Below are positions 4,660-64,000 of a stretch of 64,000 bases of DNA, one piece after another; the first letter of the stretch is position 1; every line of letters begins with the position of its first letter. The position numbers were made by a program, and so were the translations under genes. Source of the stretch: Candidatus Latescibacterota bacterium (GTDB lineage Bacteria; Latescibacterota; UBA2968; GCA-2709665); NCBI GenBank assembly GCA_965222075.1, contig OZ244937.1:256001-320000 (forward strand). Direction: 5' to 3'. The notes below the pieces were generated by a model that was not told the DNA's origin, searched no databases, and was given only the letters and a program-made list of their open reading frames with translations.

Positions 4660-4661
4660 GT

Positions 4662-40920: not shown

Positions 40921-41756
40921 AGGCGGAGTCCGTTGACAAACTGTATTTGGCGGCGGCAGGCCGGCAGGCGAGTTCTACCGGGAGGCGCTGGCGTTGTTGG
41001 ACAAGGCTGAGAACACGTAGCCTGGGTCGGAGCCGGAGATGGTGGTGATTCCGGCGGGCCGTTTTCGGATGGGCTGTGTATCCTTTAGAGACTGCAGGGA
41101 CAACGAGCTGCCGGTGCGCGAGGTGGCGATCCGATCATTTGAACTGTCGAAGTACGAGGTGACGTTCACGGAGTACGATCGCTTCTCGGCAGCGACGGAT
41201 CGCGAGCGGCCGCACGACAGAGGCTGGGGCCGGAGATGGCGTCCGGTGATCGAGGTTTCGTGGAAGGACGCGGTGGCGTGTACACAGTGGCTGTCGTCGG
41301 AGATGGGCAAGAGCTACCGTTTGCCGAGCGAGGCGGAGTGGGAGTATGCGGCCTGCCTGTCCGAGGGACGCAGGCAGGCGCGTGCGGGCTCGGTGACGAA
41401 GTATAGTTGGGGGAATGAGATCGGTCGCACACCAGGCCAATTGCGAGGGGTGCGGCAGTCAGTGGGACAATGAGAAGACGGCATCGGTGGGTTCGTTCGG
41501 CCCCAACGCCTGGGGCTTGTACGACATGCACAGCAACGTGTGGGAGTGGGTGCAGGACTGCTGGCACGCCAGTTACCGGGGCGTGCCAGCGGACAGGTCG
41601 GCCTGGGAGAGCGGCCATTGCTCGGGTCGCGTGTTGCGCGGCGGCTCGTGGTTCAACTTACCCAGGTACCTCCGCGCCGCGTACCGCAGCAGGTTCACCA
41701 CCGACGTCCGCAACAACATCGACGGTTTCCGTGTTGCCCGGACGCTTACCCCTTGA
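40921..41756 (+). pseudogene. FGE-sulfatase (C-type lectin-fold) protein, frameshifted; DGR-target-like
   Basis: PEMVVIPAGRFRMG, RLPSEAEWEYA, NAWGLYDM, RVLRGGSW..GFRVAR; frameshift near 41429; N-terminus broken. Confidence 0.85.
41352..41378 (+). repeat. 27-bp palindromic micro-element inserted in frame
   Basis: CCTGCCT GTCC GAG GGAC GC AGGCAGG; removal restores EAEWEYAARAG. Confidence 0.9.
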
Positions 41757-41849
41757 ATCCTTACTTCTTTACCTCCCTCCCTGCCAGCAACTTTTTGGCA
41801 GAGAGGGGGGTTCCAAGGGGGCATCGCCCCCCTGGATGTTTTTGCCTTC

Positions 41850-41972
41850 GTGCCCAATGATCGTCCGTTTCGCGCCGACATGGTTGATTCGATAAAAGTT
41901 GCGATTCGCCATATTCAGACCTTCTATGCCGATCAGATGCAAGTGGCGGGCTACGGCAACAGAACCTTCCGC
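41850..41972 (+). pseudogene. fragment of the N-terminal domain of the WD40-metalloprotease family
   Basis: VPNDRPFRADMVDSIK..FYADQMQVAGYGNRTFR matches LPNDRPFRADVVDSMK..FYAEQMQAHGYGDMTFR of 51725..56347. Confidence 0.75.
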
Positions 41973-41989
41973 CACACTTCCTAACAAAA

Positions 41990-42258
41990 GGGAGTGGGAG
42001 AGGATTTGTCGGCGAACGCGGCCTTGAAGGCGCTGGGGACGATCAAGCTGGTGGAGTGCGAGACGGAGGAGGGAACCAAGCAGCGCATCGTGACGCGAGC
42101 GTTCCGAGCAGGCGGTCAAGATCTTGAAGACGCTAAAGATCATGCGCCGTGTTCAGCCTCGTCCATGCCGCCTGCCAGTCACGGCGACAGCCGCTTGGGG
42201 TGAGAAAAAACCCCGTGTTGATCGCAACAGACTTAAGCGGCCAACCGTCATACACGGG
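41990..42258 (+). mobile_element. possible IS1634-like transposase C-terminal remnant
   Basis: DLSANAALKALGTIKLVE..RIVTR resembles IS1634 C-termini; recognised from memory only. Confidence 0.4.
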
Positions 42259-42341
42259 CTAAGGTGAGCTTGAATAACATCTTAGGATATACATCTTCGC
42301 CCCCAAAACAGTGCAGGCCAGTAACGGGATAGCAAAGGATT

Positions 42342-45300
42342 ATGCCAGTGAAAGTGACCGATGAAGTCGTATCTAAGGACGACCCTGGCCGTCGAGGTCA
42401 GATCATTCGGGGGCCACGCAAGCGCTCCGACGGAAATGTCTTTCTCATACGTTGGGACGATAACACTACCAGTTGGGCACCGGAGTACTCGTTGGTAGTC
42501 GCGAGCGAAGAGTCTGAAGACCCCTTTGAACTTCTAGAAAAAAAACGCTTCGGCAGGGCAAACGATCTGCGCCGCAATCTCACGTTTATCCAGCTTAGCG
42601 GGAGGCTGGCCAATGTCGTATACGGCATGGACACAACGAACACCGAGTTCCTGCCGTACCAATACAAGCCCGTACTCACCTTCTTAGAATCTCCCTCGAA
42701 GGGGCTTCTTATTGCTGACGAGGTAGGGCTGGGAAAAACTATTGAAGCTGGCTTGATCTGGACCGAACTTCGCGCCAGATACGACGCACGCCGACTCGTC
42801 GTCGTTTGTCCTGCAATGCTCCGTGACAAGTGGAGTCTTGAGCTTGCAAACAGGTTCGGTGTCGACCCGGTCCAACTGAACGCTGCCGAACTCGCAGATG
42901 AGCTTCATAAGAACAAGAACGATACTCCAGAGAATAAAGGATTTATATGCAGCCTACAGGGGATAAGACCGCCGACAGGGTGGAGAGACAAGCAACTCGC
43001 AAACGGCCGGATTCGCCTGGCTAGACGGCTGGACGAGTTGACGGAATTAGAGCCCGCCATCGACCTATTGGTCATCGACGAAGCACATTACATGCGCAAC
43101 CCGGAGACACGTAGCGCGGCACTAGGAAGGATGCTGCGTGAGGTGAGCGAGCACATTGTCTTGCTATCGGCGACGCCGATCAATAACCGCGAGGACGACC
43201 TGTACCAACTCCTACGGCTGATTGACCCTGATTCATTTTACACGCGTGACCTCTTCCCACAGGTGCTGTCTGCAAACGAGCCACTGCTGCGCGCCCGCAA
43301 TCTTGTACTCGACCACCGGTCCACTGGCACGGAGATTACCAACGAACTCCGCGTCGCGATGCGCCACCCTCTACTCGTAGAGAACCGCCAGCTTCAAGGA
43401 CTTATCAAGGAGAACTTCGACAAACATTTTCTTGAAGAGCCAGGCAACCGTGTAGGTATCGCAAATCGCATTGATCGTATCAATCTATTGCGGCACACGA
43501 TCAATAGAACGCGAAAGCAGGAAGTCGAAGAGTGGAAGGTCATCCGTGAGCCACATGACCATTTCGTGGATTTAGATCCCGACGGGCCGGAGTGGGATTT
43601 TTACCATAAGGTCACGCATTCCATCAGATGTTATGCGTTTGAGCAAGGTATCAGCGACGGGTTTCTGCTATCGACTCCGCAGCGCCAAATGGCGAGCTGC
43701 ATGTACGCCGCTGCCAAGAGTTGGCGGGACACTTCTTCGCTCAAAGATGTGCCAAATCTTATTTATGAAGACCTCGGTGACCTCCGTAAGGCCGATACAA
43801 ATCCCGAAGATGCGCGTCCTTTGATCGAGCACATCGCCACAGAAGTGTTGCCTGGTTTCGACTTTGAAAGGCTGAAGGCAGAAGATTCCAAGTTCGACGC
43901 ATTTAAGCGCATAGTACACGAGTATCTGGACAGCAACCCAGGCGAGAAAGTTATCGTTTTCTCGTACTTCAAGGCCACCTTGCACTATCTTGAGGAGCGC
44001 TTCTCGTACTTAATGGTCCCGGTACAGGTTTTGCATGGCGGCGTCATGGAGAACAAACAAGAAGCTCTCAACCGATTCCGAGATGGAGATACACGAATCC
44101 TTCTCACTTCCGAGGTCTCAAGTGAGGGTGTTGACCTTCAGTTCTGCAGTTTCATAGTCAACTACGATTTACCTTGGAATCCGATGAAAATCGAGCAGCG
44201 TATCGGCCGTATCGACCGCATCGGGCAAAAAGCCGACAAGGTGTTGATCTGGAATCTCGGCTACGCCAACACGATCGACGAGCGGATCTACATTAGACTC
44301 TTGATCAAGCTCAAGATCTTTGAGCGCGCGTTGGGTGGAATGGAAGTCGTACTGGGTGAGAAAATCTCCGAACTGACAAGTGATTTGATGCGCCTGGAAC
44401 TCACACCGGAGCAAGAGGAAGAACGCATTGACCAAGCATTCATGGCCATCGAGAACGTGAAGAGACAACAGGACGAATTGGAAGCGAAGGCAGCCCATTT
44501 GATTGCCTACGGGGATTACATTCTCGAGCGGGTGAAGGCGGCGCACGAGTTTAAGAGACGCATTACGGATGAGGACCTCAAGGCGTACGTCAAAGACTAT
44601 CTCGACCGTCATGCCAAAGGTTTCGTCTTCACGGAAAGTGATAAGGATCCCCTGACGGTCGATATTCGGCTCTCGCCGAATCTTGCAACCCGCTTTGACG
44701 ACTTTGTCCGTCAGTCGCGCCTCCAAGGGCAGAGCCGCTTAACCTACGGGCGTACAGTACGATGCCAGTTCTGGAACAAGATCGATCGATTCACTCCCCA
44801 GAGAGAGATCGTCAGTCAGTTTCATCCCTTTGTCCGCTTCATCAGCCAAGAGCTACGGGAGCGCGCGGAGAAATTCTGTCCGCTTGTAGCGCTTACCGTG
44901 CCCAAACGAGCAGCACCGTACTTAACAAAGAGCACGTACGCATTCTCTGCGAAGCGCTGGTCGTTCAGCGGCCTGAGGACCGACGAGGAACTTCACGCGC
45001 GTGCGATCAACATAGAAAACAGCGACGATAATCTCGATTCGGATCAGTCTTGGGACCTGGTGAACGCAGCGAAAGTGGAAGGCTCCGACTGGTTGTCGAT
45101 TGCTAACGACATCGACGACATCGACAAGATAGCGTGCATCTTCGATAAGTGCGATATTCAACTAGAAAAAGACTACGCAATCACCAAACGCGACCGCAGG
45201 AACGAAAATGATGATCGGGTAGCGTTTCAGATTCAGACTGCAAGTCGGCATCGAGACCGTCTTCTCAAATCCCAAAACGAGCTTCTTGCACGTTACCGAG

Positions 45301-45455
45301 AACAAAACCAACAGCGGCTAATTCCGATGACAGAGGGACGTATCCGGTCAATCGAGAGGAAGTTCGAAAATCAAATTGAACGATTTCATCAACGGGGACA
45401 GATGTCAGCATCCGTCGCCGACATCTGCTACGGGATAATCCGGGTCACAGACTGA
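42342..45455 (+). CDS. SNF2/RapA-like superfamily 2 helicase
   Basis: ADEVGLGKT, DEAH, LSATP, SEGVDLQ, YDLPWNP..EQRIGRIDR. Confidence 0.92.
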   Translation: MPVKVTDEVVSKDDPGRRGQIIRGPRKRSDGNVFLIRWDDNTTSWAPEYSLVVASEESEDPFELLEKKRFGRANDLRRNLTFIQLSGRLANVVYGMDTTNTEFLPYQYKPVLTFLESPSKGLLIADEVGLGKTIEAGLIWTELRARYDARRLVVVCPAMLRDKWSLELANRFGVDPVQLNAAELADELHKNKNDTPENKGFICSLQGIRPPTGWRDKQLANGRIRLARRLDELTELEPAIDLLVIDEAHYMRNPETRSAALGRMLREVSEHIVLLSATPINNREDDLYQLLRLIDPDSFYTRDLFPQVLSANEPLLRARNLVLDHRSTGTEITNELRVAMRHPLLVENRQLQGLIKENFDKHFLEEPGNRVGIANRIDRINLLRHTINRTRKQEVEEWKVIREPHDHFVDLDPDGPEWDFYHKVTHSIRCYAFEQGISDGFLLSTPQRQMASCMYAAAKSWRDTSSLKDVPNLIYEDLGDLRKADTNPEDARPLIEHIATEVLPGFDFERLKAEDSKFDAFKRIVHEYLDSNPGEKVIVFSYFKATLHYLEERFSYLMVPVQVLHGGVMENKQEALNRFRDGDTRILLTSEVSSEGVDLQFCSFIVNYDLPWNPMKIEQRIGRIDRIGQKADKVLIWNLGYANTIDERIYIRLLIKLKIFERALGGMEVVLGEKISELTSDLMRLELTPEQEEERIDQAFMAIENVKRQQDELEAKAAHLIAYGDYILERVKAAHEFKRRITDEDLKAYVKDYLDRHAKGFVFTESDKDPLTVDIRLSPNLATRFDDFVRQSRLQGQSRLTYGRTVRCQFWNKIDRFTPQREIVSQFHPFVRFISQELRERAEKFCPLVALTVPKRAAPYLTKSTYAFSAKRWSFSGLRTDEELHARAINIENSDDNLDSDQSWDLVNAAKVEGSDWLSIANDIDDIDKIACIFDKCDIQLEKDYAITKRDRRNENDDRVAFQIQTASRHRDRLLKSQNELLARYREQNQQRLIPMTEGRIRSIERKFENQIERFHQRGQMSASVADICYGIIRVTD

Positions 45456-45470
45456 GATAGGAGAAACTTC

Positions 45471-46862: not shown

Positions 46863-47006
46863 CCCGAAGTTCCCTCGAATGGGCTGATCTATATAGTTGA
46901 TCATAAAAGACAAATTCAGAGATTTTATGTGTGGTTGACTGCGAACGTCCGAATCCGCTTTGAAATCGAAAGCATTTTGCAAGATACATTGGCCGATTGC
47001 GAGCGG

Positions 47007-47079
47007 CCTGCCTCTGCCTGTGACGAAGGCCTGCTTACCTCTCCCGGTAGGCAGGCCGGCCGGATGCCCGGTAGGCAGA
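47007..47079. repeat. degenerate compound micro-element cluster
   Basis: Contains CCTGCTTACC-tctccc-GGTAGGCAGG (47030-47055) plus extra CCTGCC/GGCAG arms; same right flank as 57211 and 61710. Confidence 0.6.
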
Positions 47080-47515
47080 CGCAAACAGAGCAGCGAACAG
47101 TACCCCGTTCCGTATATTCGTTTACTTCAAAAGATCGCTCGGGAAACAGATTGGGAGACGCTTCCTCTCCACTTGCAGGATGCCGTTGACGCCATGTTAA
47201 TGGAAGAATCGAATGAGGAAAATAGCGAAACGCGGCCTTTGCGAGATTTGCTCCGTGAGACCGGAGAAGCACCTTAGCAATGGCTTACGCTGTTCACATG
47301 CATTCGGCTGCAGAACAAGGACGCCGTCTGGTACAGGGCCATATTAGCCACCGCCGCACCCTGCTGATGAGTACGGCAAGGTGGCGGATGTGCGGGAGTT
47401 GGTGGGGGGGTAGGGGGCAGTTTATTGCCTCGAACGGGGCGAAACCGAAGGTCATTTGGAGATGGACTGAATGAACGATCCTTGCAGAAGCGGACCGATT
47501 GCAATGGAGGTACCG

Positions 47516-51339: not shown

Positions 51340-51359
51340 TCCAATAGGAGACAAACTTG

Positions 51360-51724: not shown

Positions 51725-54700
51725 ATGCAACGAACAGCATTTGATCAGGTCACCCCGCTGTTGATGCTGGCGACATGTTTTTTGGCATTGCTCTGCCTCC
51801 CTTCCGTCAGTTCCGCTTGGTCCCCGCCGGCCGACAGTGTGCATTTCTGCGCGCCGTTCGATTACGAGCAGTGGCGGCGGGATCACCCCCGTCCTGCGGC
51901 CAAGCCGCTGGGGGATCTGAACGTGGGGGAACCGCGCACGGTGCGGATGATCTACTTTCTGCCGAATGACCGGCCTTTTCGCGCCGACGTGGTTGATTCG
52001 ATGAAAACGATGATTCGCCGGATTCAGAAGTTCTACGCCGAGCAGATGCAGGCGCACGGCTACGGCGACATGACGTTTCGTATTGAGACCAATGCACAGG
52101 ACGACCCCGTCGTGCACCGCGTGGATGGTGAACACGCCGATAGTCATTATCTTGACAACACGGTGGGCCCTGTGTTGCGGGAGATTCAACAGTTGTATGA
52201 TGAGAGCAACAACATTCAATTCATCGTCATTGACAACAGTGCCGACCTGAACATTGGTGTTCACGGCCGCCAAATAGGCGGCGCTGGTGGTATTTCGGGT
52301 CCGCGGAAAAGGAGTGGTTATGTGCTGGTTCCTGGCGGATTCAGCTTCCACACGGCTGCCCACGAACTTGGCCATGCTTTCGGCTTGGGGCACGACTTCC
52401 GCGATGGCACCTACATCATGTCGTATGGCGGAGGACGGTATCGGTTATCGGCGTGCGCCGCGGGATTCCTCGCCGTGAATCCCTTCTTCAATCCGGATAT
52501 CCCACTTAAAGCCTTAACGGGCCCCACCATCGAACACGTTTCGTCCGCCCGGTATCCTGCCGGCTCGAAGAGTGTTTCCATCCAACTCAAGGTCGGCGAT
52601 ACGGACGGGCTTCACCAGGTGATCCTGCACGTTTTCACAACCGCTATATCCATTACTGCCGGATCCTCTGAAGTTAAGGCGTGTCGTGGACTGGCAGGAG
52701 AAAAAGAAACAGTCGTCGAATTCGAGTATGACGGCGTTGTTCCATCTTCTTTTGTTGGAAGTCTTTCCGAGCCTCCTGTACATCGCATTGGGGTTGAGGC
52801 GATTGATACGAATGGGGACGTAAGCACTGCCAGTTTCTATATTGCGCAAAGTTCGCCATACCTGATCACCACCCTTGAAGGGCATTCGTCAGATGTCCCT
52901 TCGGTGGCGTTTTCGTCCGATGGTAGCACACTGGCTTCCGGGTCGTGGGATAGCACGATCGTGCTGTGGGATATGGACACCCGGGAACGGATGGCCGTCC
53001 TGGAAGGACACACCCATGGCGTCACTTCGGTGGCGTTTTCGTCCGATGGTAGCACACTGGCTTCCGGATCGCTTGGTGGCGAGATCCTGCTGTGGGATGT
53101 GGCGGCCCGAGAAGCGGTCGGCGCTCTGGAGGGGTATACGGAACGCATCAGTGAGGTGGCATTCTCACCCGATGGTAGGACGCTGGCTGCCGGGGGGTGG
53201 TGGGATGATACGGTCAAACTGTGGGACGTGGCGACACGCGAAGAGGTTGCAACCGTGCAGATGCATACAGATCCGATCCTTTCGGTGGCATTTTCGCCCG
53301 ACGGTAGCATCCTGGCTTCCGCATTAGGGGACAACACAATCCTGCTGTGGGACGTGGCGGCCCAAGAAGAGATTGCCACCCTGAAGCGGCAATCAATCAT
53401 CTATGCGATGGTATTTTCGCCCGACGGTAGCATCCTGGCTTCCGCATCAGGGGACGGCACGACTGTGCTTTGGGACGTGGCGACACGCCGGAAGATTACC
53501 ACCATTGAAGGGGATTGGGCCTGGGTCAACTCGATGGCGTTTTCGCCCGATGGGTCCACTCTGGCATCCGGTACAGCCATTGGGACCGTCATAATGCAGA
53601 ATGTTCTGAGTGGAAATATAGACCAGAGGTTTCCGCATACAGGTGCCGTCACTTCGGTGGCCTTTTCGCCCGACGGTACCATGCTGGCTGCGGCATCAAC
53701 GGATGACAGGATAGAGTTGTGGGATACCTCCGAGTGGGTGCGTCCACGTCCTTTTCGCGTGATGAAAGTGTCCGGCGATGACCAGCAGGGTGCACCCGGC
53801 GACACGTTGGGCCAACCCCTGGTCGTGGAAGTGCGAGATCAGTACGGCAATCTTCTGCCCGATGTGCCCGTTACGTTCACGGTCACCGCCGGAAACGGTA
53901 CGCTGGGCGGAAGGTTCACGACTGAGCGCGCAGTGACCGATACCCACGGCCGGGTTGAGGTTTTCCTTACCCTTGGTTCCAATCCGGGCACAAACACCGT
54001 TGGGATATCTCTGGGTGTGGGTGAGCTGACGACGTTTCGTGCGGAGGGTGTCGGAACCGGCGTGATCGTCCGTGAGGAAGATTTCCGGACATGGCATCTG
54101 CCGGACGGTGCGATTGTCCGCCTGGGAAAGGGAACCATCAGTGAAAGCGACCGCGCCGTGGACTTTTCGAGGGATGGCCGATATCTGGCTGTGGCCAGTG
54201 ACATCGGCGTGTGGGTCTACGAGATGGCGACGTCCCGTGTTCTGGCGCTGTTACCTGCCGAGGATAGGGCCTATTCGGTGTCATTTTCCCCCGATGGCAC
54301 GACGCTGGCTTCGGCGTTGAACAATGGCAGGATCGAGCTGTGGCAGGTTAATACGGGTGCGCGGATTGGCACCCTCGACCGGCAGTCGTTATGGGTCCCT
54401 TCTGTGGTGTTTTCATCGGATGGGGCCACCCTGGCCTCGGGGTCAGGTGATGGCACAGTCCTGTTGTGGGACGTGTCGAGCCAAGCAGAGATCGCCGTGC
54501 TGGAGGGGCATACGAGTCGCGTCAGGTCGGTGGCGTTCACGCCCGACGGTACCATGCTGGCATCCGGGTCGGATGACGAAACCATCAAGTTGTGGGACGT
54601 GTCGAGCCGAGCAGAGATTGCCACTATAGAGGGGCATAGGCAAGAGGTCAGGTCGGTGGCGTTTTCTCCTGGTGGCGGCATCCTGGCTTCAGGGTCATGG

Positions 54701-57088: not shown

Positions 57089-57190
57089 ACACGCCAAACC
57101 CGTTGTTAAAATAAGGCGATGGCGTGATTGGGCTTGGCGATTTTGTGATCTTTGCCAAGGCCTTCGGGAAAGAAGGTTGACCTATCTGCG

Positions 57191-57210
57191 CCTGCCAGAA
57201 GACAGGCAGG
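57191..57210. repeat. 20-bp micro-element variant
   Basis: CCTGCCAGAAGACAGGCAGG between CCTATCTGCG and CGCAAGCAGAG. Confidence 0.65.
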
Positions 57211-57270
57211 CGCAAGCAGAGCAGCGAACGGTACCCCGTTCCGTATGTTCGTTTACTGAGGTGTAAACCC

Positions 57271-58866
57271 ATGCGTTTTTTCAATACAGCCGGTCCCATC
57301 ATCCCAGAGGATCATTACCATATCCCACCGTTGGAACGGATTGATTTCGACGAAGTCCTGCTGCTGATTGAGCGAAAGAGGTACTTCGTGATGCACGCGC
57401 CCCGGCAGACGGGCAAGACGTCTTCTCTGCTGGCACTGATGGATGAACTGAACGGCGGCGGGCGGTATCGCTGCATGTACGTGAACGTGGAGATCGGTCA
57501 GTCCGCACGCGAGGACGTGGGGGCGGCCCTGCGGGCGATACTGGGTCAATTGGCTATGCGGGCGGAACGCATCCTGGGCGAGCGGATCGTGAAGGAGGTC
57601 TGGCGCGAGGCTCTTGAGGACTCAGGCCCCCACGGCGCGTTGCAGGAGGTGCTGAGCCGCTGGGCCGCGGCAGACGCCAGGCCGTTGGTGCTGATGATCG
57701 ACGAGATTGACGCGCTGATCGGCGACACGCTCCTGTCCGTGCTGCGGCAACTCCGTGCGGGCTATCCCGACCGGCCGCGCCAATACCCGCAGACGGTGAT
57801 CCTGTGCGGCGTGCGCGACGTGCGCGACTACCGCATCCAATCCACCGCAGAGAACGCGATCGTCGCAGGCGGCAGCGCGTTCAACATTCGCGCCGAGTCG
57901 TTGCGGCTGGACGATTTCACAGCGGACGAAGTGCATAAGCTCCTGGTGCAACACACCGAGACCACCGGACAGGTGTTTGCCGAGGAGGCGCAGAACGCGA
58001 TCCGGGAATTGACGCAGGGCCAGCCGTGGCTGGTGAATGCACTGGCTTATGAAGCCTGCTTCAGGAACAAGGCCGGGCGGGATCGCAGCCGGCCGGTCAC
58101 AGCCAATGCGATATGCGACGCCCGTGAACAGCTCATCCTGCGCCGCGAGACACACCTGGACCAACTTACCGACAAACTCCAGGAGGAGCGCGTGCGGCGC
58201 GTGGTCGAACCGCTGTTGAGCGGTGCCGAATACACCGAGGCGATTCCCCAGGACGATGTGGAATATGTCCGCGATTTGGGCCTTTTGCGTCGAGAAGATC
58301 CCATCGCCATCGCCAACCCAATCTATCAGGAGGTCATCCCCCGCGACCTGACCTACACCACGCAGGCATACCTCGCTCAAGACCCGGCCTGGTACGTGGA
58401 TGCGGACGGGCGTTTGCGCCTTGCCGATCTGCTGGCCGCGTTCCAGGGGTTCTTCCGTGAACATTCGGAACACTGGGTCGAGCGGTTTCAGTACAGGGAA
58501 GCCGGTCCGCAGCTGCTGCTGCAGGCGTTCTTGCAGCGTATCGTCAACAGCGGCGGGCGGATCGAGCGGGAGTATGGCCTGGGTCGGATGCGTACGGACC
58601 TGCTGATCCTGTGGCCGGCACCCGGCGACGCCCGGTCCGGTCAAGCGGTTCAGCAGGCGGTGGTCGAATGCAAGCTGCTTTACAAGAGCCTGGAACAGAC
58701 CGTGCGCGAGGGCCTGGAACAGACCCGCGCCTATATGGATCGCTGTGCCGCGGAGGAAGGCCACCTCGTGGTCTTTGACCGCACGGTGGACGTGTCGTGG
58801 GACGATAAGATCTTCCGCCGCGAGGAGGGTGTGGGGGATACGAAAGTTACGGTGTGGGGGATGTGA
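57271..58866 (+). CDS. AAA-type ATPase with C-terminal PD-(D/E)XK nuclease-like domain
   Basis: Walker A HAPRQTGKTS, Walker B LMIDEID; REYGLGRMRTDLLI..VVECK..GLEQT..Y. Confidence 0.85.
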   Translation: MRFFNTAGPIIPEDHYHIPPLERIDFDEVLLLIERKRYFVMHAPRQTGKTSSLLALMDELNGGGRYRCMYVNVEIGQSAREDVGAALRAILGQLAMRAERILGERIVKEVWREALEDSGPHGALQEVLSRWAAADARPLVLMIDEIDALIGDTLLSVLRQLRAGYPDRPRQYPQTVILCGVRDVRDYRIQSTAENAIVAGGSAFNIRAESLRLDDFTADEVHKLLVQHTETTGQVFAEEAQNAIRELTQGQPWLVNALAYEACFRNKAGRDRSRPVTANAICDAREQLILRRETHLDQLTDKLQEERVRRVVEPLLSGAEYTEAIPQDDVEYVRDLGLLRREDPIAIANPIYQEVIPRDLTYTTQAYLAQDPAWYVDADGRLRLADLLAAFQGFFREHSEHWVERFQYREAGPQLLLQAFLQRIVNSGGRIEREYGLGRMRTDLLILWPAPGDARSGQAVQQAVVECKLLYKSLEQTVREGLEQTRAYMDRCAAEEGHLVVFDRTVDVSWDDKIFRREEGVGDTKVTVWGM

Positions 58867-59225: not shown

Positions 59226-61652
59226 ATGAAAAAATGGATTTTTCATCTCACCGCACTAACCGGATTGAATGTTTGCATTTTCGCGTTGCTCTATCTCTTG
59301 TGTGCGGGCGATGCCTCTGCTCAGCAAATCCAGACGCCTGCTCCGCCGAGCATGGACGGTGATTTTCAGACGTGGCATTTGCCCGAAGGTGCCCTCGCCC
59401 GCCTGGGCAAGGGAGCCATTGGTGAAGGCGACCGGGCGGTGGCGCTTTCGTCTGACGGGAAATATCTCGCCGTGGCCAGTGGCGTCGGCGTGTGGCTGTA
59501 CGAGATGGCGACGTCCCGTGCCCTGGCGCTGCTACCCACTGCGAGTCCAGTCTATTCGGTGGCGTTTTCGCGCGGCACCATGCTCGCTTCGGGTTTGGTC
59601 AATGGCAGGATTGAGCTATGGGAGGTCAAAACGGGCACGCGGATTGCCATCTTTGAAGGGCGCAGGTGGGTTCGAGTTACTTCGGTGTTGTTTTCGCCTG
59701 ATGGTGCCACTCTCGTTTCCGGCTCTTATGATGGCGCGGTCAGGCTGTGGGATGTGGCGTCCCGAAAACGCATCGCCACCCTGGAAGGGCATACAGAGCA
59801 GGTCACTTCGGTGTCGTTTTCGCCTGATGGTGCCACTCTGGCTTCCGGGTCGCAGGATAAAGCGGTCAAGCTGTGGGATGTGGCGTCCCGAGAAGAGGTC
59901 GCTACCCTGGAAGGGCACTGGCATTTGGTCAGTTCGGTGTCGTTTTCTCCCGATGGCGACATTGTTGCTTCCGGGTCGTGGGATCGCACGGTCAGGCTGT
60001 GGGATGTGTCGGCCCGCGAAGAGATCACTACCCTGGGGAGGCACAGTTCTATTATCAGTTCGGTGTCGTTTTCGCCTGATGGCGCCACTCTGGCTTCCGG
60101 GGGAAGGGATCACACGGTCAGGCTGTGGGATGTGGCGTCCCGAGAAGAGGTCGCCACCCTGGAGGGGCATACGTATCGCGTCAATTCTGTGGTGTTTTCT
60201 CCTGATGGGACCACTCTCGTTTCCGGGGCAGCGGACGGTATGGTTCTGCTGCGGGATGTGGAGACGGGAAATGTCGCCAGGCTCTCCGGGTATATAAGTG
60301 TCAGCTCGTTGGCGTTTTCTCCCGATGGGACCACTCTGGCTTCCGGCTCTAATGATGAAACGATCAAGCTGTGGGATGTGGCGTCCCGAGAAGAGGTCGC
60401 CACCCTGGAGGGGCATACGTATCACGTCAATTCTGTGGTGTTTTCTCCCGATGGGACCACTTTGGCTTCCGGCTCTGAGGATGAAACGATCAAGCTGTGG
60501 GACGTGGCGGCCCGAGAAGAGGTCGCCACCCTGGAGGGGCATACGTATCGCGTCAATTCTGTGGTGTTTTCTCCCGATGGGACCACTTTGGCTTCCGGCT
60601 CTGAGGATGAAACGATCAAGCTGTGGGATGTGGCGACCCGAAAAGAGATCGCCACCCGGAAAGGGCACTGGTATGGAGTCAATTCTGTGGTGTTTTCTCC
60701 CGATGGGACCACTCTGGCTTCCGGGGGAGGGGATGGCACGGTCAGGCTGTGGGATGTGGCGTCCCGAAAAGAGGTCGCCACGCTGGAGGGGCATAGGAAT
60801 AGGATCAATTCTGTGGTGTTTTCTCCTGATGGGATCACCCTCGCTTCGGGGGGATCGGATCGCACGGTCAGGCTGTGGGACGTGGCGTCCCGAAAAGAGA
60901 TCGCTGCCTTTGAAGGGCATACGGATGAGGCCATTACGTCTGAGGTCAATTCTGTGGTGTTTTCTCGCGACGGGACCACTCTGGTTTCCGGCTCTTATGA
61001 TGGCGCGGTCAGGCTGTGGGATGTGGCGTCCCGAAAAGAGGTCGCCACTCTGGAGGGGCATACGGATGGGGTCATTTCTGTGGTGTTTTTGCCCTATAGG
61101 ACCACTCTGGTTTCCGGCTCTTATGATGGTACGATGTTGTTGTGGGATATGTTGCCGTACATCACCTCATGCACGCCGAGGCCGCCGGTGAAAATCTACG
61201 GCGACAAACAGGAAGGAATGGTCGGAACCGCTTTGGCCAAGCCGTTTGTCGTTTGGGTGTTGGATGAGAAGGGGGCGGCGTTTGAAGGCGTGCCGGTCTC
61301 GTTTGCTGTGACTGCAGGTGGGGGGAGGCTCTCTGTTGAGACCACGGTGACGGATGCGAATGGTCGAGCATCGAGCACGCTGACGCTTGGGAGTGAACCA
61401 GGCACAAACACCGTTGTGGTAAGGGTTGCAGGAACTGAGGAGACGGCGACCTTTGTCGCAGAAACTTTAGCTATGCCCGACTTTGACGGCGATGGTGCGG
61501 TGGGTTTTTCCGACTTTTTGCTGTTTGCCCAGCAGTTCGGGTTACGTCAAGGCGATGCGGGGTATGACGCGCGGTATGATCTGGATGGGGATGGGACCAT
61601 CGGGTTTGGGGATTTTGTGATTTTTGCCAAGGCCTTCGGGAAAGAAGGTTGA
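59226..61652 (+). CDS. secreted WD40-repeat protein with Big_1 and EF-hand/dockerin-like tail
   Basis: Signal peptide; about 14 WD40 repeats; same upstream GGAGCAGGGGCCAATG as 51725. Confidence 0.9.
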
Positions 61653-61662
61653 CCTATCTGCG

Positions 61663-61709
61663 CCTGCCTGTGTTCCTCCCACACGCAGGCCGGGTCTTCG
61701 GCAGGCAGG
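61663..61709. repeat. 47-bp compound micro-element
   Basis: CCTGCCT GTGT TCCTCCC ACAC GC AGGCCGG plus GTCTTCGGCAGGCAGG. Confidence 0.75.
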
Positions 61710-61769
61710 CGCAAACAGAGCAGCGAACGGTACCCCGTTCCGTATGTTCGTCTACTGAGGTGTAAACCG

Positions 61770-62051
61770 ATGCGTTTCTTCAACACGGCCGGTCCCATCA
61801 AGCCGGATATTCACTACGATGTCCCGCCGTTGGAACGGATTGACCTGGACGAGGTGCCGATGCTGATCGAGCAGCAGAGGTACTTTGTCATGCACGCGCC
61901 CCGGCAGACGGGCAAGACGTCCTCTCTGCTGGCCTTGATGGACGAGCTGAACGGCGGCGGGCGGTATCGCTGCATGTACGTGAACGTGGAGATCGGCCAG
62001 TCCGCACGCGGGATACGAAAGCTACGGTGTGGGGGATGTGAAGGGAAATGA
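61770..62051 (+). pseudogene. internally deleted copy of the AAA ATPase gene
   Basis: First 80 codons match 57271; at 62010/62011 the sequence jumps to the gene's last about 30 nt. Confidence 0.85.
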
Positions 62052-62279
62052 CTCCGCAGTGATGATAGGAGAGTAGATCCATGAAACCCCCCGTTCTTTG
62101 TATTGCAGATCGAAAATTTATCGTATTGAACGTGATGTGTGACTTTAAATAGGAGAAAGGAGGTCTTAAGGCTACCTTGTAAGTATCACCAAAACGAGGC
62201 AGCCAACCCCCAACAGGAGGGACCTCCAAATGTATAATTTAGAACTATTCGTCATCGCTGTCTACTGTTTAATTGCCGA

Positions 62280-62312
62280 CCTGCCTGCCGCGCGGTGCTT
62301 GGCGCAGGCAGG
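62280..62312 (+). repeat. 33-bp micro-element, in frame (LPAARCLAQAG)
   Basis: CCTGCCT GCCGCGC GGT GCTTGGC GC AGGCAGG; removal gives ADELY. Confidence 0.9.
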
Positions 62313-62804
62313 TGAGTTGTATCCCAACTTCTGTCAAAGATATGGCCCCCCCCGTCGGGCAGGCTTTTCACCAACCCTGAGTGATGCGGAATGCCTGACG
62401 ATTGAAATCGTTGGACAATTTCTGGGCTATCCCAATCAAAAGCAACTCTTTGAGCGGATGCGTGAGCGCTTCGGCACCTGGTTTCCAGATCTAAAAGAGA
62501 GGGAGGCCTTTGTGCGCCAATCGGCCAATCTTTGGCAGGTCAAAGCCATTTTACACCAGCAGTTGGTGGAAAGGTTAGGTGGCCATCACGCCCCCTGTCA
62601 GATCATTGATACCCTGCCCGTTCCCATCTGTCACCTGGCACGGAGGTGGAGGCGAAAAATCTTCAAAACAGACCCCGTCTTTGATTTTCCAGACCCCACC
62701 AAGGGCTACTGTGCGGCCAAAAAGGAAGCATACTTTGGCTTCAAAGGGGGACTGCGGATCACAAAGGATGGCCTGATTGTTCACGCGCCGCTGTTGCAAG
62801 CCTA

Positions 62805-62837
62805 CCTGCCTGCAGCGCAGGGCACTGCGCAGGCAGG
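62805..62837 (+). repeat. 33-bp micro-element, in frame (LPAAQGTAQAG)
   Basis: CCTGCCT GCAGCGC AGG GCACTGC GC AGGCAGG; removal gives QAYGHD. Confidence 0.9.
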
Positions 62838-62894
62838 TGGTCATGACTCAAAGTGCCGCGACCAACTTCTGGAGGGAGTGCAACCCGATACCTT

Positions 62895-62921
62895 CTTGCC
62901 TGCGCGCAGCGCGCAAGCAGG
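62895..62921 (+). repeat. 27-bp micro-element, in frame (LPARSAQAG)
   Basis: CTTGCCT GCGC GCA GCGC GC AAGCAGG; removal gives TFVLGD. Confidence 0.9.
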
Positions 62922-63095
62922 TGTGTTGGGCGATACCGCTTTTTTGGATCTAAACTGGCAGGAAGCGTGTCAAAAACGCCATCAGGTGCGGGTTTTAACC
63001 CCCATCAAATCCAATATGAAGCCAACCCCACAGCGCAAACCCTTTATACTATCTGGGGTGGGAAAAACCCTGCGACGGTTGATTGAAACCGTCTA

Positions 63096-63122
63096 CCTGC
63101 CTGTGCGTTGCACGCAGACAGG
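63096..63122 (+). repeat. 27-bp micro-element, in frame (LPVRCTQTG)
   Basis: CCTGCCT GTGC GTT GCAC GC AGACAGG; removal gives IETVYAQL. Confidence 0.9.
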
Positions 63123-63223
63123 TGCACAACTGACCCAACGCTTTCAGGTGGCCAGAATGAGGGTGCGCGATGCCTGGCACTTCAGAACCTCTGGACCACC
63201 AAAATCTTAGCGCATACAGTCTG

Positions 63224-63275
63224 CCTGCTTGCCTGTCTGCCTTCGGCACAGGCAGGCGCGCTGCGCGCAGGCAAG
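63224..63275 (-). repeat. two nested micro-elements (27-bp outer, 25-bp inner at 63232-63256)
   Basis: Outer is the exact reverse complement of 62895-62921; removing both gives AHTVCVFLN. Confidence 0.9.
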
Positions 63276-63420
63276 CGTGTTCCTCAATATCCAGCTGCAA
63301 CGAGATCCCTTAGATTTTGAGGGACTCGTCCGATTCTAAAAAAAGTCTCACATGACGTTTGCTTCTACTACAACACAATTGCCCATCAATCGTAACTGAT
63401 TGTGGGCTTGTTCGTTTTAT

Positions 63421-63456
63421 TGTTGCAAACTACAACACGCGTTGTAAATTGCAACA
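63421..63456. promoter_or_regulatory. operator/enhancer-like inverted repeat
   Basis: TGTTGCAAACTACAAC-acgc-GTTGTAAATTGCAACA (14/16 match). Confidence 0.5.
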
Positions 63457-63648
63457 TTTTTCGTTCCCGCCTTACAACTTTTCCTATAACTACATTTATA
63501 AACAGGAAGTTATAAAATTCCTTCCGCATGGACTTGTTCTCCGGAGGGGTTTTTGCGTTGCATTTTGCGACAATTTCCAAAATTCCCGCTGCTCCCATAT
63601 TCTGCCTAACTCGTTCAATGGAAATGAGTTAGGCAGATTTTTGAGATT

Positions 63649-63664
63649 TGGCACACATTTTGCA
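63649..63664 (+). promoter_or_regulatory. sigma-54 -24/-12 promoter consensus
   Basis: TGGCAC-ACATT-TTGCA. Confidence 0.55.
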
Positions 63665-63696
63665 TGTACAGTTGAAAAGATCGTGCCATCCATATC

Positions 63697-63807
63697 CCTG
63701 TCTGCCTGCTTGCCTGTCTGCCTGCTTGCGCGCTGCGCGCAGGCAAGCGTGCAACGCACAGGCAGGCGCGCTACGCGCAGGCAAGCGTGCGGTGACGCAC
63801 AGGCAGG
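63697..63807 (-). repeat. four-level nested micro-element stack (30+27+27+27 = 111 bp)
   Basis: Left arms at 63697, 63705, 63713; intact innermost element 63721-63747; right parts 63748-63766, 63767-63785, 63786-63807. Confidence 0.92.
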
Positions 63808-63973
63808 GATGATGGCCTGTTGGAAAAAGGTCTCATCCCGGGTCTTCCAGACTTTCACCCGAGCCTGATTGATGGCTTCCTGAAGATCGAGGATATCATC
63901 CTGCTTGAAACGATGCAGCAAATCGCCTGCGGTAGAGGGAGCAGGCAACCGTTCAACCTCAAGCGCATCCCTG

Positions 63974-64000
63974 CCTGCCTGCAGCGCGGTACGCCGCGCA
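63974..64000 (+). repeat. micro-element cut by the window end (33-bp class)
   Basis: CCTGCCT GCAGCGC GGT ACGCCGC GC A...; GGCAGG is predicted to follow. Confidence 0.75.

What the first reader, a model, noticed from the sequence alone, without database searches (positions are those of the whole stretch)
41352..64000. Family of 25-33 bp palindromic micro-mobile elements inserting precisely and in frame
Seen: 12 canonical copies (41352, 62280, 62805, 62895, 63096, 63224, 63232, 63697, 63705, 63713, 63721, partial 63974) and 4 variants (41776, 47030, 57191, 61663). Exact removal restores the host protein with no target duplication. Ten of 11 complete copies in coding-derived DNA are 27, 30 or 33 bp, while the intergenic variants (20, 26, 31, 47 bp) are not 3n. 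Identical copies occur in opposite orientations at unrelated sites (62895 vs 63721; 63096 vs the third nest level). In element orientation the 3' flank is TG x4, CA x5, CG x1, GA x1. Known analogues: Rickettsia palindromic elements (much longer) and REP/RAYT. I recall similar LPAGRQ/PACRQAG-type peptide inserts in other bacteria but know of no characterised mechanism. Inference: a minimal non-autonomous mobile element moved in trans.
Basis: partly seen in the sequence, partly recalled or inferred. Interest (0 to 1): 0.95.

Follow-up and report, generated by a model that had tools for sequence, protein, structure and literature searches.

The report
Tiny palindromic mobile DNA inserts
The window holds many copies of a 25-36 base GC-rich palindrome that has been pasted precisely into genes, spacers, other mobile DNA and copies of itself, and the same tiny element turns up in many unrelated uncultured bacteria with no known enzyme to move it.

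Summary
The finding is real and larger than reported. All 12 canonical copies are where stated. The 5.36-Mb chromosome holds 291 units, against 1-4 in simulated genomes. Sixty units have element-free paralogous sites with exact CCTG...CAGG boundaries and no target duplication. Two near-identical IS copies differ by four elements.

Inserts sit in frame in PurL, an RND pump, a UvrD-like helicase, HsdR and an IS982 transposase. Homologues of the IS982 transposase and PurL lack them.

Lengths are multiples of three in 235/291 units, and units avoid stop triplets. The 3n bias is as strong in spacers (108/141) as in ORFs (91/110). So it is a property of the family, not frame-aware insertion.

Insertion is at purine^pyrimidine. 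In this genome the polar subfamily also has C-V-S-R on one flank only, the pattern of its own 3' end (CAGG).

Copy number is patchy among relatives (0-180). The same 27-mer occurs in MAGs titled from about 17 higher taxa, and family members occur in viral contigs.

No transposase is linked. Y1/RAYT genes are never adjacent and track only loosely.

Best reading: a non-autonomous hairpin micro-transposon moved in trans by an unidentified single-strand enzyme. Closest known are REPs, cyanobacterial SDRs and mitochondrial GC clusters.

The parts
41352..41378 (.). 27-bp unit CCTGCCTGTCCGAGGGACGCAGGCAGG inside the first half of a frameshifted FGE-sulfatase (SUMF1-like) gene, read as CLSEGRRQA
   Evidence: Seven paralogues have the empty site ...TATGCGG^CGCGTGC.... 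Pfam PF03781 is split over two frames.
62230..63210 (+). IS982-family transposase ORF (326 aa, cut short by a stop) carrying four in-frame units
   Evidence: Homologues P0004-P0007, P0009, P0012 and others (mostly 312 aa) lack all four inserts. P0002, P0003 and P0008 share some and carry others.
62280..62312 (.). 33-bp unit, peptide LPAARCLAQAG, target GA^TG
   Evidence: Contigs of runs X1, X5 and X8 join 62279 to 62314 without it.
62805..62837 (.). 33-bp unit, peptide LPAAQGTAQAG, target TA^TG
62895..62921 (+). 27-bp B-type unit CTTGCCTG...CAAGCAGG, peptide LPARSAQAG, target TT^TG
   Evidence: It is the exact reverse complement of the unit at 63721.
63096..63122 (+). 27-bp polar T-type unit CCTGCCTGTGCGTTGCACGCAGACAGG, peptide LPVRCTQTG, target TA^TG
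   Evidence: The same 27-mer is found in many phyla.
63224..63275 (-). Two-level nest: a 27-bp B-type host with a 25-bp T-type unit (63232-63256) inserted after its eighth base
63697..63807 (-). Four-level nest (30+27+27+27 = 111 bp), T and B types alternating, each inserted after base 8 of its host (equivalently, 8 bases before the host's 3' end on the other strand)
   Evidence: Contig joints 63696>63808 (X1, X3, X5; short sides of 18-26 letters) and 63711>63766 (X3).
63974..64000 (.). 33-bp unit cut by the window end (complete in the genome, 319974-320006)
47030..47055 (.). Doubtful variant, 26 bp, CCTGCTTACC...GGTAGGCAGG in a spacer
   Evidence: It fits the loose regex only.
57191..57210 (.). 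Doubtful 20-bp variant CCTGCC-AGAAGAC-AGGCAGG, at the same site of a local duplication as 61663
61663..61709 (.). Doubtful 47-bp variant with CCTGCCTG...GGCAGGCAGG ends, paralogous site to 57191

Best explanation
These are copies of a family of 25-36 bp, about 74% G+C, imperfect palindromes. They are, or very recently were, mobile and non-autonomous.

What is shown:
- A unit runs exactly from C(C/T)TG to CA(A/G)G.
- It enters DNA between a purine and a pyrimidine. It duplicates nothing and deletes nothing.
- It lands in either orientation in spacers, genes, insertion sequences, phage DNA and other copies of itself.
- In this genome the polar subfamily (left arm CCTGCCTG, right arm CAGACAGG) lands 3' of a C-V-S-R tetranucleotide on one side only. 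The unit's own 3' end (CAGG) has the same form. So the left junction, the right junction and the empty target all read CVSR^Y.

What is inferred:
- One strand folds into a hairpin that brings the two junctions together.
- An enzyme supplied in trans cuts 3' of CVSR on single-stranded DNA and rejoins the ends. This would be a seamless 'peel and paste', as in IS200/IS605.
- I think an HUH/Y1-type (RAYT-like) or other phosphotyrosyl single-strand transesterase is the most likely enzyme (about 0.3 for HUH specifically).
- The dominance of 27/30/33/36-bp, stop-free units is best explained by selection on the donor pool in a genome that is about 85% coding. Units that keep frames open survive in genes and go on to seed new copies everywhere, spacers included.
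For: - Abundance: 291 units against 1-4 in simulations.
- Empty sites: 60 of 291 units have a clean empty paralogous site, the best with 200/200 identical flanking bases. Boundaries are exact and there is no duplication.
- IS pair: 9 mismatches over 1,803 aligned columns, but four extra units (27, 27, 25, 25 bp), all at A^T.
- Host proteins: IS982 homologues lack the four inserts exactly, while close relatives carry other inserts at other sites. The PurL insert is absent from nine homologues aligned. Other hosts are an RND pump, a UvrD-like helicase and HsdR.
- Target: -1 is a purine in 267/291 and +1 a pyrimidine in 254/291. After removing shared flanks, R^Y holds in 212/268.
- One-sided motif: in T-type units, CVSR is on the left in 58/86 and on the right in 11/86, with -4 C in 68/86. 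The background is 7% overall and 15% at R^Y sites.
- All types together: the motif is on at least one side in 129/212, against 28% of random R^Y sites.
- Nesting: in the nests read in detail (window nests and the nested rows) the insert has the host's orientation and sits at C(A/G)CG^CA, 8 bases before the host's 3' end. This is the commonest position, 10 of 40 nested sites, plus 2 at the mirror position.
- Length: 3n in 235/291 units, 100/137 distinct sequences and 68/97 singletons.
- Stop triplets: 109/125 distinct units are stop-free in six frames, against 71+-5 and 91+-5 (maximum 103) in two kinds of shuffle. None of the 90 3n composites in ORFs adds a stop.
- Distribution among relatives is patchy, with different dominant subfamilies: 0 to 180 matches among 41 relatives, and the reversed-pattern control gives 0.
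- Units occur in a 45% G+C phage-like contig.
- They occur in MAGs titled from about 17 higher taxa, with unrelated flanks in 73/83 sites, at 52-98 matches per genome, both strands summed (palindromic units count twice), in four of them.
- Independent public runs from three studies hold the region and the elements.
Against: - No enzyme is identified.
- No gene in this genome is flanked on both sides by units, apart from a sigma factor, a surface protein and a glycosyltransferase.
- RAYT-like genes here and in eight loci of four other-phylum carriers have no unit within 1.5 kb. Where examined (three g2 relatives and one of the two here), their flanks carry REP-like hairpins of a different sequence.
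- Canonical Y1 transposase counts do not follow element counts: G004 has 32 Y1 hits and 2 elements, G038 has 75 and 1, G019 has 0 and 75-89.
- There is no orientation bias with replication, which IS200/IS605 elements show by my recollection: T-type 34:47, all types 80:94.
- The one-sided CVSR motif is not reproduced in 83 sites from other phyla (15 left, 17 right).
- It could not be tested in relatives, because there most copies ride inside one larger repeat.
- Hairpin energies are only moderately better than shuffles: z from -1.1 to -2.8.
- About a fifth of copies in this genome also share flanks, so they are hitch-hikers rather than independent insertions.
Confidence: 0.6

Rival explanations
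1. They are ordinary REP elements of a REP/RAYT system. A RAYT tyrosine transposase of the genome moves them, and the copies in genes are the known 'intragenic REP' phenomenon.
For: - Size, palindromy, copy number and spacer enrichment (141/251 top-level units in about 15% of the genome) fit REPs.
- Intragenic REPs, including in UvrD-type genes, are in print (abstract and passages of PMC3733652).
- RAYT-like hits occur in 12 of 13 relatives with 15 or more matches, against 5 of 28 with 6 or fewer.
- They also occur in 4 of 4 carriers from other phyla, and not in the archaeal MAG with one copy.
Against: - There is no GTAG or CGTC tag. The conserved flank is target DNA already present in empty sites.
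- No RAYT-like gene has a unit within 1.5 kb: 0 of 8 loci in other phyla. The one unit beside a relative's RAYT-like gene (L016) is absent from the orthologous site.
- Where examined (three g2 relatives and one of the two here), the flanks of the RAYT-like genes carry REP-like hairpins of a different sequence.
- There is no single RAYT orthologue group: the one in this genome is full length only in G009, G012, G017 (with a stop) and G019.
- G024 has 46 units and only broken Y1 genes.
- There are no doublets at fixed spacing.
- There is no excess in convergent spacers: 10/141 against 14% by length.
- The related genomes compared are not independent.
Confidence: 0.15
2. No dedicated transposase exists. 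The units exploit a universal single-strand DNA enzyme, for example a type IA topoisomerase, which cuts 3' of C-N-N-N. That enzyme occasionally excises the hairpin and religates it elsewhere.
For: - The abstract of PMC3467081, seen in the listing, states that bacterial and archaeal topoisomerase I select a cytosine 4 nt upstream of the cleavage site.
- Both strands of every unit end in CAGG^, which has C at -4. In this genome the target flank has C at -4 in 68/86 T-type sites.
- A universal enzyme would explain the near-identical 27-mer under many phylum titles without a linked gene.
Against: - C at -4 is only 33/83 on the left flank in other phyla, and by my hand count of the same listing G at +4 is 30/83 on the right. 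That is weak and two-sided.
- A universal enzyme does not explain why congeners have 0-3 copies.
- It does not explain the absence from the plasmid and phage collections of mostly cultured organisms (a weak test).
- I know of no precedent for such transfer by type IA enzymes (recollection only).
Confidence: 0.1
3. The units spread through RNA. Transcribed hairpins are reverse-transcribed and integrated. This route is recalled as proposed for cyanobacterial SDRs, and is discussed for yeast mitochondrial GC clusters.
For: - Many units lie in transcribed genes.
- RNA-mediated spread is discussed for GC42 clusters (Discussion of PMC4478555).
- The proposal for SDRs is recalled only; that paper is not held.
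Against: - Junctions are seamless, with no tails, truncations or duplications.
- There is no significant sense/antisense bias in ORFs (50:37, p=0.20).
- No reverse transcriptase was examined.
- No RNA run was available, so nothing can be said from expression.
Confidence: 0.07
4. They are not mobile. They are native repeat peptides, products of gene conversion or slippage, or assembly artefacts.
For: - Some copies clearly multiplied by riding in larger repeats.
- All 80 listed records of the genome collection are uncultured-derived assemblies (MAGs or single-cell bins).
Against: - Homologous proteins lack the peptides.
- Empty sites have no flanking direct repeats that slippage would need.
- Identical units sit at unrelated sites.
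- Units are present in a complete single-contig genome, in short-read MAGs of many studies and in contigs of independent runs.
- The 74% G+C units lie in 38-45% G+C DNA.
Confidence: 0.03

Closest known systems
REP elements (GTAG- and CGTC-tagged repetitive extragenic palindromes), including intragenic REPs; REPINs and RAYTs
   Same: - Imperfect palindromes of 20-40 bp in tens to hundreds of copies.
- Mostly in spacers, but also inside known genes, where they add 9-30 residues.
- Patchy distribution among species.
- CGTC REPs likewise lack a dedicated transposase (PMC3733652 abstract and passages; PMC3116915 passage).
   Different: - No GTAG or CGTC tag, no RAYT adjacency, and no fixed doublets.
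- 44% of top-level units lie in ORFs.
- Strong 3n and stop-free bias.
- Frequent self-nesting.
- The same 27-mer occurs under many phylum titles.
- The strings CCTGCC, GGCAGG and CAGACAGG do not occur in the main text of PMC3733652. Its figures and supplements, which hold the consensus sequences, could not be seen.
Small dispersed repeats (SDR) of Nostocaceae (Elhai et al. 2008, Genome Res 18:1484)
   Same: By my recollection: mobile repeats of 21-27 nt with a shared hairpin fold, nested insertions into copies of themselves, and no known enzyme. They were described as perhaps the smallest mobile elements.
   Different: - A later paper reports SDRs only in the Nostocaceae lineage (PMC5861425 passage). 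This family is in Latescibacterota-type genomes and many other phyla.
- The Elhai paper is not held. I saw only its reference entry, so its sequences, targets and coding bias could not be compared.
IS200/IS605 family and its non-autonomous palindrome-associated derivatives
   Same: - Seamless insertion without target duplication.
- Hairpin ends.
- Insertion 3' of a short motif on one side only (in this genome).
- Single-strand logic (family properties recalled).
   Different: - A single 25-36 nt hairpin instead of two different subterminal hairpins with guide sequences.
- A degenerate target (CVSR).
- No replication-strand bias.
- The one intact IS200-type TnpA of the genome has unrelated end hairpins.
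Palindromic GC clusters of yeast and other mitochondria (e.g. GC42)
   Same: - GC-rich palindromes of about 30-50 nt.
- They proliferate, merge or nest, move between species and occasionally sit in genes.
- The mechanism is unknown (PMC4478555 abstract, introduction and Discussion).
   Different: - GC clusters carry a putative target-site duplication (AG) and live in AT-rich organelle spacers.
- These units have no duplication and live in bacterial chromosomes and phage DNA.
Rickettsia palindromic elements (RPE)
   Same: Palindromic repeats inserted in frame in protein genes.
   Different: RPE are about 105-146 bp (table in PMC3184786). That is four times longer, and they are confined to Rickettsia.

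Membership tests
REP/RAYT (REPtron) | Short (20-40 bp) imperfect palindrome in many dispersed copies | tested here: met
   291 units of 19-39 bp. The units fold as hairpins, -5 to -12 kcal/mol.
REP/RAYT (REPtron) | Unpaired GTAG (or CGTC) tag at one end | tested here: not met
   Units start C(C/T)TG and end CA(A/G)G. The conserved CVSR flank is present in empty sites, so it is target DNA and not part of the element.
REP/RAYT (REPtron) | A RAYT gene flanked by the family's own repeats | tested here: not met
   RAYT-like genes of this genome have no units nearby. RAYT loci of four relatives carry a different REP, and the single unit present (L016) is absent from the orthologous site. None of 8 RAYT loci in four other-phylum carriers holds a unit. 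The only genes flanked by units on both sides are unrelated.
REP/RAYT (REPtron) | Inverted doublets (REPINs) or BIME-like arrays at regular spacing | tested here: not met
   Units cluster (61 of 250 gaps are under 1 kb, about 12 expected), but without preferred spacing.
REP/RAYT (REPtron) | Predominantly extragenic, downstream of genes | tested here: inconclusive
   141/251 top-level units are in spacers, against about 15% of the genome. However 110 are in ORFs, and convergent spacers are not enriched: 10/141 against 14% by length. Gene calls are my own crude ORF model.
IS200/IS605-type single-strand elements | Seamless insertion, no target-site duplication | tested here: met
   60 filled/empty pairs and four indels in an IS pair.
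IS200/IS605-type single-strand elements | Insertion 3' of a conserved tetra- or pentanucleotide on one side only | tested here: inconclusive
   Met in this genome for T-type units: CVSR on the left in 58/86, on the right in 11/86. Not seen in 83 sites of other phyla (15 versus 17). Untestable in relatives because of hitch-hiking.
IS200/IS605-type single-strand elements | Two different subterminal hairpins (left and right ends) with guide sequences | tested here: not met
   The whole unit is one hairpin of 25-36 nt.
IS200/IS605-type single-strand elements | Orientation bias relative to the replication fork | tested here: not met
   T-type 34 leading: 47 lagging (p=0.18); all types 80:94. Origin and terminus were taken from cumulative GC skew.
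IS200/IS605-type single-strand elements | Cognate Y1 transposase in genomes that carry the elements | tested here: inconclusive
   PF01797 hits do not follow element counts. RAYT-like hits follow them loosely: 12/13 against 5/28, among related genomes that are not independent.
MITE of a DDE insertion sequence | Terminal inverted repeats shared with a full-length IS, and a target-site duplication | tested here: not met
   No duplication. After excising the units, the arm words fall to the level of same-composition octamers, and no longer element shares the termini.
Small dispersed repeats (SDR, Nostocaceae) | Sequence families SDR1-8; confined to heterocyst-forming cyanobacteria | not testable with these tools
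   The paper is not held. Only a later passage on the lineage restriction was seen. The host range here is different.
Known RNA families (Rfam 15) | A match at or near a family's gathering score | tested here: not met
   Window 61500-64000 gives only three hairpin-type chance matches of 18-22 bits, against gathering scores of 67-84.

The most novel reading that the evidence does not exclude
A pan-bacterial 'nano-transposon': a 27-33 nt hairpin, the smallest class of mobile DNA. It is kept almost letter-identical under many phylum titles because it parasitises a widespread single-strand DNA enzyme rather than a transposase of its own. It is shaped by selection to be readable in all six frames, so it can colonise housekeeping genes, insertion sequences and phages alike.
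Probability: 0.2. Interest if true: 0.95.

Novelty: new variant of a known kind. Interest (0 to 1): 0.78.

Why it matters
- It would be among the smallest mobile DNAs known. Its target rule (R^Y; CVSR^Y in this genome) is explicit enough to test with oligonucleotides.
- It adds 9-12 residues to housekeeping enzymes without breaking them, so it is a steady source of protein-length variation.
- It confuses gene callers, domain searches and short-read assemblers: contigs of public runs break at the units.
- The same 27-mer under about 17 higher-taxon titles and family members in viral contigs imply one of two things. Either there is very wide horizontal traffic, or there is a conserved enzyme-substrate relation still to be found.
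- The equal 3n bias in spacers and genes is a clean example of selection acting on a transposon's donor pool rather than on individual insertions.
- No paper in the searchable library prints its sequence or its peptides.

Tried and rejected
- **Other copies of the IS982.** None exists in this genome at DNA or protein level, so empty alleles had to come from homologues and from other repeats.
- **Parent IS with the same termini.** None found.
- **Genes bracketed by units.** Only three, all unrelated to DNA transactions.
- **Orientation defined by the bulge side.** It gave no bias with replication (103:126) or with the coding strand (52:44). I replaced it with orientation defined by the arms, which is also not significant.
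- **Check of the CVSR rule in G019, G009, G012 and G013.** Most sampled T-type copies there (26 of 36) sit in one larger repeat (CCATCCGGGCTG^...^CGTCCGGCCCTT), so they are not independent. The six G047 sites do not follow R^Y on the left.
- **G170.** Three of the four sampled sites share their immediate flanks and the fourth carries the left flank inverted. Its roughly 98 matches may therefore be a longer composite repeat.
- **Expression.** No RNA holder was listed for the region, so nothing is said about expression.
- **Contig joints.** The joints 63696>63808 and 63711>63766 have sides under 30 letters, at a likeness threshold of 90. I count them only as hints. Other joints in that table link different copies of the repeat and look like assembly-graph effects.
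- **BLAST of the 111-bp nest against plasmids and phages.** No match. A single 27-bp hit would fall at about the E-value limit, by my own estimate, so this is a weak negative.
- **Rfam.** Nothing.
- **The Elhai 2008 paper** could not be read. Supplements and figures of PMC3733652, which list REP consensus sequences and intragenic REPs, were not visible and may bear on novelty.
- **The archaeal MAG** has a single copy on a 3.8-kb contig. I do not claim presence in archaea.
- **Serine- or tyrosine-recombinase models.** Considered and set aside: a GC crossover dinucleotide fits G^C targets but not the 62 A^T targets.
- **Holliday-junction resolvase and gyrase models.** Set aside for lack of any fitting signature.

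Full report
**What is there**

Reading the window shows every canonical copy at the stated place.
- The window is bases 256001-320000 of a single 5,360,005-bp contig with 59.3% G+C.
- A stricter definition requires arms C[CT]TG[CT][CT]TG and CA[AG][AG]CA[AG]G, applied with repeated excision of the innermost units. It gives 291 units: 252 innermost units, then 33, 5 and 1 units uncovered in three further rounds of excision.
- Three order-3 Markov genomes give 4, 1 and 3 matches.
- The units are 73.7% G+C and comprise 137 distinct sequences.

Three kinds stand out:
- **A-type:** two perfect arms, CCTGCCTGC...GCAGGCAGG, mostly 33 bp.
- **T-type:** polar, CCTGCCTGT...CAGACAGG, of 25, 27, 30, 33 or 36 bp.
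- **B-type:** CTTGCCTGCGCGC...CAAGCAGG, 27 bp.

Most fold with a 2-3 nt asymmetry between an outer and an inner stem. DNA folding energies of eight window copies are -5.2 to -11.9 kcal/mol, with z-scores of -1.1 to -2.8 against shuffles. They are hairpins, but not extreme ones.

**Evidence that they are insertions**

I joined the flanks of each unit and searched the same genome.
- 60 of 291 units have another locus that matches across the junction with no gap within 15 bases. The best pairs are 200/200 and 198/200 identical.
- In every pair the filled site equals the empty site plus exactly CCTG...CAGG. Nothing is duplicated or lost.
- Two copies of a 1.7-kb insertion sequence align over 1,803 columns with 9 mismatches and 104 gap letters. 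The gaps are four units (27, 27, 25 and 25 bp), all at A^T. Two further units are shared.
- One of the four has arms CCTGCCCG...CAGGCGGG, which my pattern missed. The census is therefore a lower bound.

The window's IS982-family transposase carries LPAARCLAQAG, LPAAQGTAQAG, LPARSAQAG and LPVRCTQTG.
- In an alignment of 16 homologues, the typical 312-residue proteins have clean gaps at all four places.
- The three closest relatives share some inserts. Two of them (P0002, P0008) also have inserts at other sites, and P0002 has a nested one.

Host proteins elsewhere in the genome:
- PurL;
- an AcrB-type pump, whose Pfam match is split at the insert;
- a UvrD-like helicase;
- HsdR;
- an oxoprolinase-like protein (named from its sequence by eye; no family search was run).

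For PurL, nine homologues aligned lack the peptide, which lies in a variable loop.

Between species, a unit just after a RAYT-like gene of G021 is missing from the same place in G009.

Contigs of public runs from three studies hold the region.
- Error-free contigs span whole units.
- In three runs of two studies, a diverged IS982 copy joins 62279 to 62314 without the first unit.
- Weaker joints skip the whole 111-bp nest or its inner 54 bp.

**The reading-frame question**

Lengths are multiples of three in 235 of 291 units, 100 of 137 distinct sequences and 68 of 97 singletons.

I built a simple gene model on the unit-free genome: ORFs scored by codon usage, giving 3,773 genes and 84.7% coding.
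- Of 251 top-level units, 110 fall in ORFs and 141 in spacers. Spacers are strongly preferred.
- The 3n share is 91/110 in ORFs and 108/141 in spacers (Fisher p=0.27).
- The bias therefore belongs to the family and does not come from frame-aware insertion. Non-3n units do enter reading frames and break them.
- All three codon phases occur among 3n inserts (44, 25 and 21; chi-square p=0.0065). The commonest phase reads L-P-A...Q-A-G, the only one whose arms encode no cysteine.
- None of the 90 3n composites in ORFs adds a stop.
- 109 of 125 distinct units of 25 nt or more contain no stop triplet on either strand. Shuffling the interior gives 71.4+-5.2. Shuffling while keeping the palindrome gives 91.1+-4.7, with a maximum of 103 in 500 trials.

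My inference is that in a mostly coding genome, only units that keep frames open persist in genes. Because any copy can be a donor, such units come to dominate everywhere.

**Target and polarity**

- Position -1 is a purine in 267/291 units and +1 a pyrimidine in 254/291.
- After removing identical flanks, 212/268 sites are R^Y: G^C 92, A^T 62, mixed 58. Complementary pairs are in excess. A is almost absent at -2, and T at +2.
- For T-type units the arms fix an orientation. The left flank is C-V-S-R in 58 of 86 flank-deduplicated sites (C at -4 in 68). The right flank, read on the other strand, fits in 11 of 86. The background is 7% overall and 15% at R^Y sites. The upstream sequences are otherwise unrelated, and the tetranucleotide is already present in empty sites. 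It is therefore a target preference.
- B-type units show the same (9 versus 3 of 15).
- A-type units, with two equal arms, have the motif on either side (24 and 38 of 98).
- Over all types, 129/212 have it on at least one side, against 28% of random R^Y sites.
- The last four bases of every unit, CAGG, fit C-V-S-R, and the first base is a pyrimidine. So the left junction, the right junction and the empty target share one form, CVSR^Y.
- Self-nesting follows the rule. The commonest nested position (10 of 40, plus 2 at the mirror position) is 8 bases before the host's 3' end, at C(A/G)CG^CA. In the nests read in detail the insert has the host's orientation.
- Orientation shows no significant bias with replication (T-type 34:47; all types 80:94). 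Across all types it shows none with the coding strand either (50:37).

**Search for the enzyme**

- The genome has one intact IS200-type Y1 transposase, whose own end hairpins are unrelated, and one broken copy.
- By tblastn it also has two RAYT-like genes. Both match the REP-associated tyrosine transposase model below its cut-off: 55.6 and 46.6 bits against 80.
- None has a unit nearby. Downstream of one lie two hairpins of unrelated sequence, the first headed by GTAG.
- In four relatives the RAYT-like genes are embedded in a different REP (GAGGGCAGG(G)ATGCCCTCG).
- Across 41 relatives, Pfam Y1 hits do not follow element counts.
- Hits to this genome's RAYT-like protein are found in 12 of 13 genomes with 15 or more pattern matches, and in 5 of 28 with 6 or fewer. 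Full-length orthologues occur in only four, one of them with a stop. G024 has 46 units and none. The genomes are kin, so this is only a loose association.
- Four carriers from other phyla each have 4-15 RAYT-like hits. None of the eight loci returned contains a unit within 1.5 kb. One locus read in full shows no related hairpin.
- No longer element shares the termini.
- No transposase-like gene is bracketed by units.
- Units cluster, but without fixed spacing.

**Distribution**

The pattern CCTGCCTG-N9-21-CAGRCAGG gives 169 forward matches here. The reversed-pattern control gives 0 everywhere.
- Genomes of the same family give 180, 152, 106, 77, 75, 57 and 38.
- Congeners of those genomes give 0-3.
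- One genome of the sister family gives 46.
- The remaining genomes of the 168 searched in the phylum give 0-20.
- Different genomes are dominated by different subfamilies.

- All 80 listed records are uncultured-derived assemblies (MAGs or single-cell bins).
- Their titles name about 17 higher taxa, among them Thermodesulfobacteriota, Nitrospirota, Verrucomicrobiota, Planctomycetota, Bacillota, Chloroflexota, Acidobacteriota, Pseudomonadota, Latescibacterota and Elusimicrobia. One is a Methanosarcinales MAG.
- One titled Latescibacterota chromosome has exactly the contig length of G021. The window's phylum is therefore probably Latescibacterota.
- In these 80 loci (38-68% G+C), 73 of 83 sites have unrelated 250-bp flanks. 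Position -1 is a purine in 78 and +1 a pyrimidine in 70. CVSR is not one-sided there (15 versus 17).
- Some of these units lie in frame in recognisable genes: an N6 DNA methylase, a PglZ protein and RecJ.
- Whole-genome counts in four of these carriers are 52-98 matches, both strands summed (palindromic units count twice). The archaeal MAG has one.
- Exact family members also occur in viral contigs. One 45% G+C phage-like contig holds several units within 0.8 kb, including a nest.

**Comparison with what is known**

- **REPs.** They share size, palindromy, patchiness and even intragenic copies in repair genes (PMC3733652 abstract and passages). They are defined by a GTAG or CGTC tag, and for GTAG by RAYT association. 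Both tests fail here.
- **Cyanobacterial SDRs.** They are the nearest in size and in self-nesting, but that rests on my recollection: I saw only the reference entry and a later remark that they are confined to Nostocaceae.
- **Mitochondrial GC clusters.** They behave similarly but carry a putative duplication.
- **IS200/IS605.** It offers the best mechanistic analogy, but three of its five defining features are unmet or unclear.
- **Type IA topoisomerases.** They select a cytosine four bases before the cut (abstract of PMC3467081 in the listing). This fits the junctions and keeps a housekeeping-enzyme model alive.
- **Literature search.** Full-text searches for the element's sequence words and six of its peptides found no relevant paper. 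Keyword searches found none describing this family.

**Verdict**

The in-frame property is a family trait shaped by selection. The family is a new, unusually widespread and gene-tolerant variant of very small palindromic mobile repeats, and its mobilising enzyme remains unknown.

Noticed in passing
G000 genome, e.g. 4120107 versus 4093231-4093430; more than 24 copies: A repeat family of about 200 bp (24-38 copies). It has a hot site, GAAGGGCG^CCGCTCA, that holds the same 33-bp unit in the same orientation in at least nine copies. Either this is a hot spot, or a filled copy of the larger repeat multiplied.
   Followed up: partly
window 41039-41756: The FGE-sulfatase (SUMF1-like) gene is split over two frames near 41415-41470 (Pfam profile 5-137 and 151-255). 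It is a frameshifted pseudogene or a sequence error, and this is independent of the 27-bp unit. At least seven paralogues exist in the genome.
   Followed up: partly
window 57120-57270, 61600-61760 and 46960-47110: Three paralogous spacers end in CGCAA(A/G)CAGAGCAGCGAAC. Just before that motif each carries a different hairpin: 20 bp, 47 bp, and two hairpins respectively. The site has variable hairpin content. The motif occurs only three times in the genome.
   Followed up: partly
window 51710-56347, 57271-58866, 59226-61652: Large WD40-repeat proteins (1545 and 808 aa) and a STAND/AAA-like ATPase lie next to each other. Upstream is an SNF2-family helicase (42342-45455).
   Followed up: no
G000 3242840-3242940 and 1858861-1859472: Two hairpins lie downstream of the RAYT-like gene at 3242104-3242871: GTAG-headed GTAGCGCAAACGGTTCGTTTGCG, and CACAAACTGACAGTTTGTG followed by CTAC. 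The second RAYT-like gene contains a GC-rich segment (GAPLVGAQ...ATTRVAPT) overlapping a GTAGGGGCAACCCTTGTGGTTGCCC-type repeat.
   Followed up: partly
L016-L019 (G021, G009, G018, G002): The RAYT genes of relatives are embedded in arrays of a different REP, (GTAG)GGCAGG(G)ATGCCCTCG. That REP is translated inside neighbouring ORFs as RGQDALDP-like peptides.
   Followed up: partly
L137-L162, L172, L176 (G019, G009, G013, G012): In these relatives most of the sampled T-type 27/28-mers (26 of 36) sit in one larger repeat, with flanks CCATCCGGGCTG and CGTCCGGCCCTT. Their high counts there reflect amplification of a composite.
   Followed up: partly
L057 10380-11220 (viral contig, 45% G+C): A phage-like contig with a ClpP-like protease and a lytic transglycosylase-like ORF (both judged by eye only). 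It carries at least four family units, including a nest, some inside ORFs.
   Followed up: partly
L224 (Methanosarcinales MAG, 3.8-kb contig): A single exact 27-mer lies in an archaeal MAG whose genome otherwise has no copy and no RAYT-like hit. It may be a mis-binned contig.
   Followed up: partly
window 61900-64000: Short-read contigs of public runs break or join wrongly at the units, with depth peaks of 1,500-5,000 against about 20-40 in unique parts. The family is thus a practical obstacle to metagenome assembly.
   Followed up: no
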